Sequence record: NZ_KJ588780.1
Direction: 5' to 3' (one strand)
DNA: 49,804 bases
Origin: a plasmid
In this document: piece after piece, positions 42,901-45,900 of the stretch
How positions within the stretch are numbered: position 1 is the stretch's first letter
Layout: the number at the start of each line of letters is the position of its first letter
Made by a program: the position numbers

Positions 42901-45900
42901 TTCTTCTCGGCCAGCATGGCCGTCAGGATGCCGCGCGCAACCTCGTCCACGGTCATGCAGCCCCGCGCCGTGTCGAAGTGCGAGCGATAGCCCGTCGCCG
43001 AGATAAACGGCCTGTCCAGGTCAACCGCGTGGAACTGAAAATGCGCGTTGAGCGGCCCGCCATAACCGGCCTCGTACTCCACCAGGGCGCGCACGTCGCC
43101 CGCCACGGCCAGGAACTGGCCGCGCTGGCCCCACAAGGGCACGTCCCCCGGCACCGCAGCGCAATGCCGCTCGATGACGCGGCCGGCGGCCTCGTCGTCG
43201 GCCATGCACCCGAAGTTCGTGCCGCCGTTCAGCTTCCAGATGATCGCCTCGTATCGGTCGCCGGCCAGCTCGGCCGCCGCCCCGTCGCCGCGCATGACAG
43301 CCGCGTCGATCTCCACCACGGCCGCAACGGCCGCAGCCAGCAGGCCGTCACGGTCTGCCGGCAGCTCGGCCAGCAGCTCGGCCGCCGGCGCGCTCCAGTC
43401 CTGGCCCGTCTGGGCCGGTTGCTTTGTTCGCTTCGCCATCGCTTGACGTGCTCCTGGGGCAGCCCCGGCCGGAGCCGGGGCCGCCCCTCATCAGTCAATA
43501 GCCCGGTAGATCGCAGCGGCCTCGGGGTGGCCGGCCGCGAAGCCGCGCAGGAAGTGATAGCGGTCGATCAGGGCGTCGGCCGCGTCCGTGCCGGCGATCT
43601 CGGCCGCGAGCTGGCCGAGCGCGAACAGGGTTGCGACAATGCCGGCGGCGTCGGCCGACAGTTCGCCCCGGAAGCCGTTGCCGTCTACCTCGATCTCCAG
43701 GCGCTCGGCCAGGTCGGGGGCCAGGTAGAAACCGCCGTCCGACAGGGTGTAGTAGTGCCAATACGCGCCGTTGTAGCGTTCGCAGAGCCGGCGCAGCCAG
43801 GCGTACACAAGGGCCTCGCCGCGCATCATCAGGCGCGGGCCGAAGTAGGTAGGCAAGAAGTCGAGGCGCTGGGCCTCGGCGACCAGGGAAGCGGTGACGG
43901 GTTGGTCTTGGGTGTTCATCGGAACTCTCCGGTAGTTGACCTGGGCGACATGCCCGGCCTTCAAGACGTATATTAGGACAAAATGTCCTAACCTGTCAAG
44001 CACTTTAGCTAAACTTTAGCCGCTAAACTGGACTTCGCCCCCTTGGAGTGATAGGATTGAATCCTATTGAACCGAATGGAGGCCGCCATGCGAACCACCC
44101 AGCAACTGAGCATCACCCTGCCGAACGACATGGCCGACGTGGTGAAAACGAAGGTCAAGACCGGGGAGTACGCGAGCGAAAGCGAGGTCATCCGCGACGG
44201 CCTGCGTGCGCTACTCGCGCGTGATCGCGCCGTCGAGTCCTGGCTTCACAACCAGGTCGGCCCGGCGTATGACGCCCTGAAAGCCGATCCCTCCCGAGCC
44301 GTCACCGCCGACCAGGTGCGCGCCCGCCTGGCCGCCGAGCATGCGAAGGCGCAATGAGCTACGCGGTCGTCTTCTCGCCCGAGGCCGAAGAGCAGCTTGC
44401 CGAGCTGTACCGCTACATCGCGGCGGCGGCGTCGCCTGACGTTGCCGCTCGCTACACCGAGGCAATCGTCACCTACTGCGAAAGCCTGCGCACGTTTCCA
44501 CTGCGCGGCACCATGCGCGACGATGTGCGGCCCGGCCTGCGCATCACGAACTACCGCAAGCGCGCCGTGATCGCCTTCGATGTGGCCGGCGATCTGGTTT
44601 CCATCATCGGCGTGTTCTACGGCGGGCAGGACTACGAGACGATCCTGCACGACGACGCGGACGACTGAATTCCCCCGCTTCTTGACACTTGAGGGGCGCA
44701 ATCACGCCCTGGGCCTGGCAGGCCGACCCCTCCCTTGGCGTTCAACCTTGCGGCCTTCGAGCTGGAGCCATCTTCCGACTTGGCGACGGCGCAGGAGTCA
44801 CCGCGGCCTTGACAGTTGGGGAGTCCAGAGGGGGCCTTGGCCCCCTTTGGAAGAGCACGAACTTCTGCCAGGCGCTTGCGCCTGGCTATGGTCAGCCGTA
44901 GCGCCGTAGGCGCTCCATTCTTGGGGTGAAGGCCGTAGGCCGAGGGGCAACGCCCCTGGGGGGATGGGAGGCCGCTTTAGCGGCCGGGTGGGATCGAGAA
45001 GGGGGGGCACCCCCCTTCGGCGGCCGATCATTCTGCGGGGCACCTTGGGCCGGTTTGCCGCTTTTTTCGACACCCGGTTATAACAACTAGGTTTAATATA
45101 AAGGTTATGAAGGGTTAAAAGCCGGTTAGCTTGACCGGAAAACGCGCGCAAGCCGTTGATACGCCAAGGAAAAGGCTCGAAGGGCCGCCCCTCAAGTGTC
45201 AATGGATAAGCCCCTCAAGGGTCAATAGTCTGCCCGTCAAGTGTCAAGGATCGCGCCCCTCATCTGTCAGCACCCCCGCCCCTCAAGTGTCAGTACGGCA
45301 AGGGCCTTGCCAACAGGCTTATCCACAACTTCTGTGGATAAAGCCAGCCCGATCAAGCACATAGGCCGCCTCGACGGCCTCCGGCGCGGCTCCAGCCGGC
45401 CGATTTCGAGGCCGGCCCCTCATCTGTCAGCATCGCGCCGGGGTGCGCTGCCCCCCAAGTGTCAAGAAACGCCCCTCAACTGTCACCAGCCGGCGTTTTG
45501 TCCCCAAACGATCCACAAGGGGGAACCGCAGAATTCGGAAAAAATCGTACGCTAAGCTAACGGTGTTCTCGTGACAGCTCTTTGACTAGGCTTTCTAAGG
45601 GGTCGTCTCAGAAAACGGAAAATAAAGCACGCTAAGGCGTAACTACCCTCGGCTACACCGCGTCGGCACCACGCGGCTCTTTCTCCCCTTGCAGCGAAGC
45701 AATCAGCGGGCAAGAAACGTTCCCTTGCCGCGCATGGCAGGCGAACACAAGTTCGGATAGCACGGTTTCCATGCGCGCCAGGTCGGTCATTTTTTCGCGC
45801 ACGTCCTGAAGCTTGTGCTCGGCCAGGCTGCTGGCTTCCTCGCAGTGGGTGCCGTCATCCAGCCTCAGCAGCTCTGCGATCTCGTCGAGGCTGAATCCGA

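What the first reader, a model, noticed from the sequence alone, without database searches (positions are those of the whole stretch)
44040..44680. ParD/ParE-like toxin-antitoxin cassette between the klcA promoter and oriV iteron 10, with a perfect palindromic operator
A two-gene operon with ATGA overlap (RHH antitoxin 89 aa, ParE/RelE-fold toxin 104 aa) is divergent from klcAp. It is preceded by ATAGGATTGAATCCTAT, 21 bp upstream of the ATG, and followed immediately by iteron 10. It is unrelated in sequence to the RK2 parDE pair, and this backbone otherwise has only parA. In RK2 this interval is described as containing just the klcA promoter abutting oriV. The cassette therefore looks like an addiction module that has taken over the stability function here.
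Basis: partly seen in the sequence, partly recalled or inferred. Interest (0 to 1): 0.6.

Follow-up and report, generated by a model that had tools for sequence, protein, structure and literature searches.

The report
Known IncP-1β kluAB toxin–antitoxin genes
This is the already described kluA/kluB ParD/ParE-type toxin–antitoxin pair that R751-type IncP-1β plasmids carry between the klcA promoter and origin iteron 10. The window is the published plasmid pA22732-IMP, so the feature is real but ordinary.

Summary
An 89-aa RHH/ParD antitoxin (44088-44357) and a 104-aa ParE toxin (44354-44668) overlap by ATGA. They are divergent from klcA, preceded by ATAGGATTGAATCCTAT (44051-44067) and followed by iteron 10 (44683-44696).

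It is not new. The interval is 100% identical to R751, where the genes are called kluA/kluB. The window is the complete published plasmid pA22732-IMP (49,804 bp), whose paper lists "kluB to kfrA" as backbone. [quoted passage not shown]

I add comparative support for the operator. TAGGATTnAATCCTA is near-invariant 16-25 nt upstream of 80 KluA homologues, overlaps a conserved -10 (TAGGAT), and lies 17 nt from a conserved -35 (TGGAC). Toxicity, the gyrase target and post-segregational killing remain untested.

The parts
43491..43919 (-). klcA (antirestriction protein); the divergent neighbour, given for context
   Evidence: ORF. PF03230 Antirestrict, E 6e-35. Annotated as klcA in R751 and other records.
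43970..43999 (-). klcA promoter (TTGACA - 18 nt - TAATAT)
   Evidence: Consensus scan, 10 of 12 matches. The KorC operator overlaps its -10/spacer.
43974..43990 (.). KorC operator OC (TAGGACAAAATGTCCTA)
   Evidence: Two identical copies in the window, 41856 and 43974, against 0.05 expected. The same position holds TAGGGCA..TGCCCTA in RP4 and other clades. Naming it OC rests on established IncP-1 knowledge.
44004..44013 (.). KorA operator core OA (TTTAGCTAAA)
   Evidence: Motif match conserved in pB3, RP4, pAKD34 and the SRS16 plasmid. The naming comes from established IncP-1 knowledge.
44015..44027 (.). KorB operator OB (TTTAGCCGCTAAA), lying directly against the kluA -35
   Evidence: Motif match. 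The same 13-mer is quoted as the KorB-binding motif in PMC3614916. Its centre is about 43 nt upstream of the predicted kluA transcription start; that KorB regulates kluAp is an inference.
44029..44034 (+). Predicted kluA promoter -35 element (TGGACT)
   Evidence: Conserved block C-T-G-G-A-C at -24..-19 relative to the palindrome in 80 homologous loci (0.5-1.3 bits, flanks about 0 bits), exactly 17 nt from TAGGAT. The consensus scan did not call it because it matches only 4+4 of 12 positions.
44051..44067 (.). kluA operator palindrome ATAGGATTGAATCCTAT (core TAGGATTnAATCCTA, 44052-44066). Its left arm, TAGGAT at 44052-44057, is the predicted -10.
   Evidence: The core is exact in 49 of 81 loci, has <=1 mismatch in 75 of 81 and <=2 in 78 of 81. 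It lies 16-25 nt (mode 21) upstream of the start codon and carries 1.5-2.0 bits per position, while synonymous sites of the genes are near saturation. Protein binding was not tested.
44078..44082 (+). Shine-Dalgarno sequence GGAGG for kluA
   Evidence: Read from the sequence. A GGAG block is conserved in homologues.
44088..44357 (+). kluA: 89-aa RHH / ParD-family antitoxin
   Evidence: PF03693 at 25.3 bits (cut-off 21) and RHH_1. TIGR02606 E 1e-10, below its cut-off. PDB relatives are ParD3 (6X0A, 5CEG), 7YCV, 7B22 and 3KXE. 100% identical to R751 WP_001260984.1. dN/dS 0.03-0.09.
44354..44668 (+). kluB: 104-aa ParE-family toxin, ATGA overlap with kluA
   Evidence: PF05016, E 2.7e-13, covering positions 1-89 of 89. 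A profile of 39 homologues hits only ParE-type structures: 6X0A 3.5e-7, 5CEG 1.3e-4, 7YCS 9e-3. The 4-nt overlap is conserved in 57 of 66 loci. dN/dS is about 0.08-0.2.
44683..44696 (.). oriV iteron 10 (TGACACTTGAGGGG, inverted relative to the main iteron cluster at about 45190-45500)
   Evidence: Motif found at the equivalent place in pB3, pA81, RP4, pMCBF6 and the SRS16 plasmid. Conservation of iteron 10 across IncP-1 subgroups is stated in PMC6961859.

Best explanation
The two genes are kluA and kluB, the ParD/ParE-type type II toxin-antitoxin operon of the IncP-1β-1 (R751-type) plasmid backbone. The window itself is the published plasmid pA22732-IMP.

Proposed mechanism:
1. kluAB is transcribed from its own weak sigma-70 promoter (-35 TGGACT 44029-34, 17-nt spacer, -10 TAGGAT 44052-57).
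2. The RHH antitoxin KluA, probably with KluB as co-repressor, binds the palindrome TAGGATTgAATCCTA, which covers the -10 and the transcription start. This autorepresses the operon.
3. The KorB operator lying against the -35 probably places the operon under the plasmid's global Kor control as well.
4. KluB is a ParE-family toxin, a family whose characterised members poison DNA gyrase. It is held inactive by the C-terminal part of KluA.
5. In a plasmid-free segregant the labile antitoxin is degraded, and free KluB arrests or kills the cell. This post-segregational killing would compensate for the absence of the RK2-type parDE module.

Shown here: identity with R751 kluAB, family membership of both proteins, operon architecture, purifying selection, conservation of promoter and operator, distribution among IncP-1 clades, and absence of parBCDE.

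Inferred: DNA binding by KluA, KorB control, toxicity, the gyrase target, antitoxin lability and the plasmid-stabilising effect.
For: Identity:
- 901 bp are 100% identical to R751, and other records annotate the genes as kluA/kluB.
- The window's length (49,804 bp), GC content (65.07%) and blaIMP-1 match pA22732-IMP.

Family:
- Pfam ParD_antitoxin and ParE_toxin match above their curated cut-offs.
- The closest solved structures are the Mesorhizobium ParD3-ParE3 complexes.
- The family profile hits only ParE-type toxins.

Architecture and selection:
- 64 of 80 homologous loci keep a KluB homologue, and 57 keep the 4-nt overlap.
- dN/dS is 0.03-0.09 for kluA and 0.08-0.2 for kluB, at dS of about 0.7-1.3.

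Operator and promoter:
- The palindrome is invariant upstream of homologues on unrelated Paraburkholderia, Rhizobium, Pseudomonas and Mesorhizobium plasmids, while the flanks do not align.
- In 81 loci the palindrome has 1.5-2 bits per position, at a fixed distance from the start codon and from a conserved -35 block.

Context:
- Only a ParA homologue is present; there is no ParB-E.
- Other IncP-1 clades carry other TA families in the same slot, so a TA function is selected at this position.

Literature:
[quoted passage not shown] - Addiction genes between klcAp and iteron 10 (PMC6961859).
Against: - I found no experimental test of kluAB toxicity, neutralisation, operator binding or plasmid stabilisation in the searchable literature. 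The original R751 paper is not held.
- The module is dispensable for plasmid survival. pB3 carries a clean deletion scar, and pRWC72a is reported to lack the genes.
- Very close KluA homologues (80-95% aa identity) are chromosomal in typical IncP-1β hosts such as Variovorax, Rhodoferax, Polaromonas and Rhodocyclaceae. They could neutralise KluB and blunt killing there.
- The S. meliloti pSymB homologue (toxin 59% identical) lies at about 133 kb. It is not the locus described as the only known active TA on that replicon (PMC4207669).
- The predicted promoter matches consensus only 8 of 12, and the promoter scan did not call it.
Confidence: 0.78

Rival explanations
1. The TA is functional, but its main selective role is competition between related plasmids rather than vertical stability. 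A cell that loses a kluAB plasmid to an incompatible IncP-1 plasmid lacking kluA is killed. Different IncP-1 clades therefore keep different, non-cross-neutralising TA families in the same slot.
For: The same slot holds ParD/ParE in β-1, RelB/YafQ in pA81-type β-2 and MazE/PemK in pAKD34, and nothing in RP4 or pMCBF6. [quoted passage not shown] PMC6312765 notes non-orthologous displacement of PSK modules in IncP-1.
Against: There are no competition data. The pattern is equally explained by repeated independent capture of any TA that improves stability. This role does not exclude ordinary post-segregational killing.
Confidence: 0.3
2. The cassette is a selfish passenger that contributes little to plasmid maintenance. 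It persists because it is hard to lose, and in many natural hosts it is neutralised by near-identical chromosomal KluA antitoxins (anti-addiction).
For: At least 587 relatives were found, the best 80 with 80-100% aa identity to KluA, mostly on chromosomes of Beta-, Gamma- and Alphaproteobacteria. pB3 lost the genes by deletion yet remains a functional backbone. pRWC72a lacks them. The pSymB homologue is not among the known active TA loci.
Against: Both genes are under strong purifying selection. The cassette is retained at 99.7-100% identity in about 49 of 53 β-1-type records. The slot is refilled by other TA families in other clades, which argues for a selected function.
Confidence: 0.2
3. 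The position matters more than the toxin. Autoregulated transcription from the TA promoter runs, without a terminator, into iteron 10 and oriV, and modulates TrfA binding, handcuffing and thus copy number.
For: No intrinsic terminator lies between the kluB stop (44668) and iteron 10 (44683); the first strong hairpin is at about 44824-44851. All three TA types in the slot point toward iteron 10. Iteron 10 lowers RK2 copy number about two-fold (PMC6961859). Transcription from a neighbouring stability module activates oriV in IncU RA3 (PMC9455977 abstract).
Against: This is purely circumstantial. The orientation follows simply from sharing a divergent regulatory region with klcAp. RP4, pMCBF6, pB3 and pRWC72a function without any gene in the slot.
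Confidence: 0.1
4. The palindrome is an IncP-1 global-regulator site (a KorC-like operator) rather than the antitoxin's operator.
For: It shares the outer half-site TAGGA...TCCTA with the KorC operator TAGGACAAAATGTCCTA found 62 bp away.
Against: The half-site spacing is 5 nt, not 7. The palindrome is conserved upstream of KluA homologues on non-IncP plasmids and chromosomes that have no KorC context. It is absent from IncP-1 plasmids that lack kluAB.
Confidence: 0.03

Closest known systems
kluA/kluB of IncP-1β plasmid R751 (NC_001735.4; WP_001260984.1 and WP_010890153.1) and of other β-1 plasmids (pDTC28, pAKD series, pADP-1, pAMMD-1, etc.)
   Same: The DNA is identical over 901 bp, including the promoter region, both genes and iteron 10. 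Position and orientation are the same. The genes are annotated kluA/kluB or ParD/RelE-ParE.
   Different: Nothing differs; this is the same locus. The window is pA22732-IMP, whose publication already lists kluB as backbone.
Mesorhizobium opportunistum ParD3-ParE3 (PDB 5CEG; chimera 6X0A)
   Same: It is the closest solved relative of both proteins. KluB profile E 3.5e-7 and 1.3e-4; KluA E 5e-4 and 1.2e-3. It has an RHH antitoxin with a C-terminal toxin-binding part and a ParE-fold toxin.
   Different: Sequence similarity is only remote, so KluAB is a separate subfamily. The operator and target of KluAB are uncharacterised.
RK2/RP4 ParD-ParE (the par region addiction module of IncP-1α)
   Same: Both are two-gene, autoregulated type II TA modules on an IncP-1 plasmid. 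The toxins are in the same Pfam family, PF05016. RK2 ParE is the founding gyrase-poisoning ParE (Jiang et al. 2002, as cited in PMC7728920).
   Different: The antitoxins are in different Pfam families (PF09386 versus PF03693) with no BLASTP similarity. The toxins are only 24% identical over 41 aa. The location also differs: RK2 ParDE is next to parCBA in the par/mrs region, whereas kluAB lies between klcAp and oriV.
Alternative TA cassettes in the same klcAp-iteron 10 slot: RelB/YafQ (pA81 and other β-2 plasmids) and MazE/PemK (pAKD34)
   Same: They share the insertion slot, the orientation toward iteron 10 and the two-gene overlapping architecture, and each has its own promoter palindrome. 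The literature uses the name kluAB for both the ParED and RelEB types (PMC7728920).
   Different: The protein families are unrelated, and the toxins are mRNA interferases rather than a ParE-type toxin.

Membership tests
IncP-1β-1 backbone locus kluAB (R751 type) | Nucleotide identity with R751 kluA-kluB and the same flanks (klcAp on one side, iteron 10 on the other) | tested here: met
   100% identity over window 43900-44800 to NC_001735.4 8413-9313. The flanking features are the same.
IncP-1β-1 backbone locus kluAB (R751 type) | Present across the clade, so backbone rather than accessory load | tested here: met
   49 PLSDB records carry kluAB at >=95% identity, against 53 records with klcA at >=95%. 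One exception, pB3, is a deletion derivative. The locus is absent from the 61 records whose klcA is 90-95% identical (β-2 type), which carry RelB/YafQ instead.
ParE toxin family (PF05016; RelE/ParE superfamily) | Significant full-length match to the family model | tested here: met
   PF05016, E 2.7e-13, 50.7 bits against a cut-off of 23, covering profile positions 1-89 of 89. There is no NCBIfam hit.
ParE toxin family (PF05016; RelE/ParE superfamily) | Closer to solved ParE toxins than to RelE-type ribonucleases | tested here: met
   A profile of 39 homologues against all PDB sequences hits only 6X0A_A, 5CEG_B (ParE3) and 7YCS_A (the toxin paired with a ParD antitoxin) at E <= 0.01. No RelE, YoeB, HigB or YafQ entries appear. 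This is a sequence-level test only; no structure was modelled.
ParE toxin family (PF05016; RelE/ParE superfamily) | Toxin inhibits or poisons DNA gyrase and is toxic when expressed alone | not testable with these tools
   This needs expression and gyrase assays. No published test of KluB was found.
ParD (RHH) antitoxin family PF03693 / TIGR02606 | N-terminal ribbon-helix-helix DNA-binding domain matching the family model | tested here: met
   PF03693 at 25.3 bits (cut-off 21) and PF01402 RHH_1 at 21.8 bits (cut-off 20.5), residues 6-46. PDB ParD hits are 6X0A, 5CEG, 7YCV, 7B22 and 3KXE. TIGR02606 scores 41.3 bits, below its 46.2 cut-off.
Type II toxin-antitoxin operon | Antitoxin gene first, translationally coupled to a small toxin gene; the pair is co-conserved | tested here: met
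   ATGA overlap in the window. 57 of 66 loci with an intact partner ORF keep a 4-nt overlap, and 64 partners are KluB homologues at 60-98% identity.
Type II toxin-antitoxin operon | Autoregulation through an operator in the operon's own promoter | tested here: inconclusive
   The phylogenetic footprint of the palindrome overlapping a conserved -10, with a conserved -35 17 nt away, is strong. Binding and repression were not tested.
Plasmid addiction / post-segregational killing module | Stabilises an unstable replicon by killing plasmid-free segregants; the antitoxin is labile | not testable with these tools
   The literature offers only suggestions (PMC4859535; PMC3614916). Loss in pB3 shows the module is dispensable.
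RK2 parDE module | Orthology to RK2 ParD (PF09386) and ParE, and location beside parCBA | tested here: not met
   There is no BLASTP alignment between KluA and ParD, and they fall in different Pfam antitoxin families. KluB against ParE gives 24% over 41 aa. No parB or parC is present in the plasmid.
Known anti-phage defence systems (PADLOC) | Match to a defence-system protein model | tested here: not met
   Neither protein has a PADLOC hit at E <= 0.01.

The most novel reading that the evidence does not exclude
The klcAp-iteron 10 interval of IncP-1 plasmids is a dedicated, exchangeable 'TA slot'. At least three unrelated TA families (ParDE, RelB-YafQ, MazEF/PemIK) have been captured there. 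Each arrived with its own operator-promoter, was placed directly against the shared KorA/KorB operators, and reads without a terminator into copy-control iteron 10. On this reading, the identity of the TA would define plasmid-versus-plasmid competition groups within IncP-1. Near-identical chromosomal KluA antitoxins in natural betaproteobacterial hosts would act as anti-addiction genes and shape the effective host range. TA transcription might also feed into replication control.
Probability: 0.12. Interest if true: 0.45.

Novelty: already known. Interest (0 to 1): 0.12.

Why it matters
It matters little as a discovery. The genes have been part of the R751 sequence for decades, are routinely annotated as kluA/kluB, and have been called a ParED-type TA of the IncP-1β backbone in print.

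Practical value:
- It confirms that annotating these ORFs as a ParD/ParE pair is sound.
- The comparative definition of the promoter and operator (TGGAC-17-TAGGATTnAATCCTA) gives a concrete target for testing autoregulation.
- Anyone designing curing or displacement vectors against IncP-1β-1 resistance plasmids such as pA22732-IMP (blaIMP-1) would need to supply kluA, not RK2 parD.
- The abundance of near-identical chromosomal antitoxins is a testable reason why killing might be host-dependent.

Tried and rejected
- KorC-operator reading of the palindrome: rejected because of the spacing (5 nt, not 7) and because the palindrome is conserved outside IncP plasmids.
- Statistical significance of the palindrome from the window alone: not significant, 4 observed against 1.76 expected. 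The argument rests on comparative data instead.
- Consensus promoter scan: it found klcAp and a + strand site at 43945-43974 inside the klcA leader. That site is probably the mirror image of the AT-rich klcAp -10. The scan did not find the conserved kluA promoter, which scores 8 of 12.
- Inverted-repeat finder with seed 6 and minimum length 12: it did not report the palindrome in any locus. This is a tool-setting limitation, not evidence of absence.
- Direct pB10 comparison: neither NC_004840 nor AJ564903 is in the collections. I relied on PMC4245530, which states >99% backbone identity including the ctl region.
- Original R751 paper (PMID 9753548) and the S. meliloti TA-deletion paper (PMC3911179): not held.
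- Literature searches for experimental tests of klu: none found.
- Defence-system reading: no PADLOC hits.
- Terminator between kluB and iteron 10: none found.
- Not run: the large protein-database searches and structure prediction. Pfam, PDB-sequence and genome-locus evidence already settled family membership. The alignment I had came from loci that the structure tool does not accept.
- Some kluB dN/dS values near 1 are artefacts of unaligned N-terminal indels and were ignored.
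Full report
**What is in the sequence**

The intergenic region between klcA (43491-43919, minus strand) and the first ORF of the finding is 168 bp. On the plus strand an 89-aa ORF starts at ATG 44088, preceded by GGAGG at 44078-82, and ends at 44357. A 104-aa ORF starts at 44354 within ATGA and ends at 44668. The perfect palindrome ATAGGATTGAATCCTAT occupies 44051-44067. The inverted iteron TGACACTTGAGGGG (iteron 10) lies at 44683-44696, 14 nt after the stop codon.

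KluA-sized protein 1 matches Pfam ParD_antitoxin (PF03693) and RHH_1 above their gathering scores. Protein 2 matches ParE_toxin (PF05016) over the full profile at E 2.7e-13. NCBIfam gives the CC2985-type ParD model for the antitoxin, below its cut-off, and nothing for the toxin.

**Identity of the window and of the genes**

A 901-bp query spanning the region is 100% identical to R751 (NC_001735.4) and to 13 other records listed at 100% (H2-H14). About 30 more records are 99.7% identical. Several submitters annotate the genes as kluA and kluB.

The window itself is the complete plasmid pA22732-IMP from Achromobacter xylosoxidans. The paper gives a circular sequence of 49,804 bp with 65.07% G+C, a blaIMP-1 integron between traC and parA, and an inverted, truncated Tn501-like mer locus (PMC4245530). 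The window is 49,804 bases, 65.07% G+C, and encodes IMP-1 at about 18.6 kb. [quoted passage not shown]

**What was already known**

[quoted passage not shown] Six were of RelEB type and five of ParED type.
[quoted passage not shown] That is almost word for word the title of this finding.
- PMC6312765 notes that PSK modules (parDE, relBE) are not core in IncP-1 and suggests non-orthologous displacement.

I found no experimental test of kluAB. The original R751 paper is not held. That the names come from that paper is my recollection, not a tool result.

**Distribution**

In PLSDB, klcA at >=95% identity occurs in 53 records and kluAB at >=95% in 49. The 61 records whose klcA is 90-95% identical (β-2 type, for example pA81) have instead a RelB (PF04221) / YafQ (PF15738) pair at the same place and in the same orientation.

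pAKD34 has a pair annotated dinJ / relE-stbE that Pfam assigns to MazE (weak) and PemK/MazF (E 5e-26). RP4 and pMCBF6 have no gene there.

pB3 has a β-1 klcA. Its sequence runs ...TTTAGCGGCTAAACTGGACTTCGCCCCCTTGG|GACGACTGAATTT...TGACACTTGAGGGG. This is the kluA -35 and spacer fused to the last three codons of kluB and iteron 10, which is a deletion scar.

The cassette is ancestral backbone there, and it is occasionally lost.

**Relationship to RK2 parDE and the rest of par**

- RP4 ParD (PF09386) and KluA (PF03693) show no BLASTP alignment.
- RP4 ParE and KluB share the Pfam family, but only 24% identity over 41 residues.
- tblastn of RP4 ParA-E against the whole plasmid finds only ParA (16603-17217, 80% identity).

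'Unrelated' thus holds for the antitoxin and is an overstatement for the toxin. 'Only parA' is correct.

**The palindrome is the cassette's own operator**

Homologous ParD/ParE pairs (65-79% antitoxin identity) occur on unrelated Paraburkholderia, Rhizobium, Pseudomonas and Mesorhizobium plasmids. They have unalignable upstream regions except for TAGGATTnAATCCTA.

A scan of species-representative genomes found at least 587 relatives. The 80 best are 80-100% identical to KluA and are mostly chromosomal, in Beta-, Gamma- and Alphaproteobacteria. Among 81 loci:

- The 14 specified bases are exact in 49, with <=1 mismatch in 75 and <=2 in 78.
- The site lies 16-25 nt (mode 21) before the start codon.
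- Information content is 1.5-2.0 bits at every palindrome position except the centre. There is a weak outward extension (AG...YY) and about 0 bits in the flanks.
- A second block, C-T-G-G-A-C at -24 to -19 (0.5-1.3 bits), was not used for anchoring.

Read as a promoter, this gives -35 TGGACT, a 17-nt spacer and -10 TAGGAT, so the operator covers the -10 and the start site. That is the classic arrangement for an autorepressed TA operon.

Synonymous divergence of the genes across these loci is 0.7-1.3 per site. dN/dS is 0.03-0.09 for kluA and 0.08-0.2 for kluB. The invariance of the non-coding palindrome is therefore selection, not recent common descent.

The palindrome shares TAGGA half-sites with the KorC operator (TAGGACAAAATGTCCTA at 43974 and 41856), but with a 5-nt rather than 7-nt spacer. 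Its presence in non-IncP contexts also rules out a KorC site.

By itself an 8+1+8 palindrome is not unusual in this window: 4 observed against 1.76 expected.

**Integration into the plasmid's regulatory region**

The cassette's conserved -35 begins one base after the KorB operator TTTAGCCGCTAAA (44015-44027). The KorA operator core (44004-13) and the klcA promoter with its KorC operator (43970-43999) precede it. The left junction of the captured cassette is thus immediately after OB, and the right junction is within 14 nt of iteron 10.

KorB bound about 43 nt upstream of the predicted start would be well placed to repress kluAp. This is inference.

No intrinsic terminator separates kluB from iteron 10.

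**Toxin family**

A profile of 39 KluB homologues hits only ParE-type solved structures: 6X0A 3.5e-7, 5CEG 1.3e-4 and 7YCS 9e-3. It hits no RelE-type RNase. The C-terminal YGGQDYE motif and several arginines are nearly invariant. PADLOC has no match. By family assignment, gyrase poisoning is the expected activity, but it is untested.

**Caveats on function**

- The module is dispensable (pB3, pRWC72a).
- 14 of 80 chromosomal loci have lost the toxin partner, for example an antitoxin fused by ATGA to ribD in L063.
- Close chromosomal antitoxins in likely hosts could neutralise KluB.
- The pSymB homologue (toxin 59% identical; about 133 kb) is not the locus described as the only known active TA on pSymB (PMC4207669).

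**Verdict**

The feature is real and correctly classified, but it is already known and is backbone rather than accessory. What this analysis adds is modest:

- a comparative definition of the kluA promoter and operator;
- the pB3 deletion scar;
- the MazEF/PemK identity of the pAKD34 slot genes;
- the abundance of near-identical chromosomal homologues.

Interest is low.

Noticed in passing
whole window (1-49804); blaIMP-1 at about 18.6 kb on the minus strand: The window is the complete published plasmid pA22732-IMP (KJ588780) from a clinical Achromobacter xylosoxidans. Length (49,804 bp), GC content (65.07%) and the full IMP-1 ORF all match PMC4245530.
   Followed up: yes
L013 (pB3, AJ639924) 96-164: pB3 carries a clean deletion scar of kluAB. 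The kluA -35 and spacer (CTGGACTTCGCCCCCTTGG) are fused to the last 9 nt of kluB (GACGACTGA) and iteron 10. This shows the TA was ancestral and then lost.
   Followed up: yes
L010 (pAKD34, JN106175) 3113-3693: The slot genes annotated dinJ and relE/stbE are, by Pfam, a MazE-like antitoxin (weak hit) and a PemK/MazF toxin (E 5e-26). This looks like a misannotation, and it is a third TA family in the klcAp-oriV slot. No iteron-10 motif was found with my pattern in this plasmid.
   Followed up: partly
L002 (pA81, NC_006830) 3030-3633: The β-2 slot holds RelB/YafQ with its own promoter palindrome (ATTACAATGTAAT). The neighbouring OA and OB motifs are degenerate compared with β-1.
   Followed up: partly
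L012 (Variovorax sp. SRS16 plasmid, NZ_LR594670) 3030-3420: In this IncP-1-like plasmid the slot contains a 93-aa ORF on the klcA strand with no Pfam match. It is bracketed by two identical KorC operators (TAGGGCAAAATGCCCTA), the second of which lies just before iteron 10.
   Followed up: partly
L014-L093 (80 genome loci): KluA-like antitoxins at 80-95% aa identity are common on the chromosomes of typical IncP-1β hosts (Variovorax, Rhodoferax, Polaromonas, Rhodocyclaceae, Herbaspirillum, Acidithiobacillus). 14 of the 80 lack an intact KluB partner; for example the L063 antitoxin overlaps ribD by ATGA. These are possible anti-addiction or orphan antitoxins.
   Followed up: partly
window 44015-44034: The KorB operator TTTAGCCGCTAAA lies directly against the conserved -35 of the kluA promoter. 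It also sits between the back-to-back klcA and kluA promoters, which suggests that KorB and KorA control both. RP4 has OA but no OB match at this place.
   Followed up: partly
window 44824-44851, and 44868 and 44999-45015: GC-rich perfect hairpins and palindromes (for example CCAGAGGGGGCC-TTGG-CCCCCTTTGG and GGGGGGCACCCCCC) lie between iteron 10 and the main iteron cluster of oriV. None is followed by a T-run, and their role was not examined.
   Followed up: no
window 43945-43974 (+): The consensus scan reports a plus-strand promoter-like site (GCGACA-18-TATATT, 9 of 12) inside the klcA leader, reading toward kluA. It is probably the mirror image of the AT-rich klcAp -10.
   Followed up: no
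H70 / L094 (S. meliloti pSymB, about 133 kb in strain 2011): pSymB carries a KluAB homologue (toxin 59% identical). It is not the locus reported as the only known active TA on that replicon (smb21127/8 at 766 kb; PMC4207669). This hints that members of this subfamily are not always active addiction modules.
   Followed up: partly
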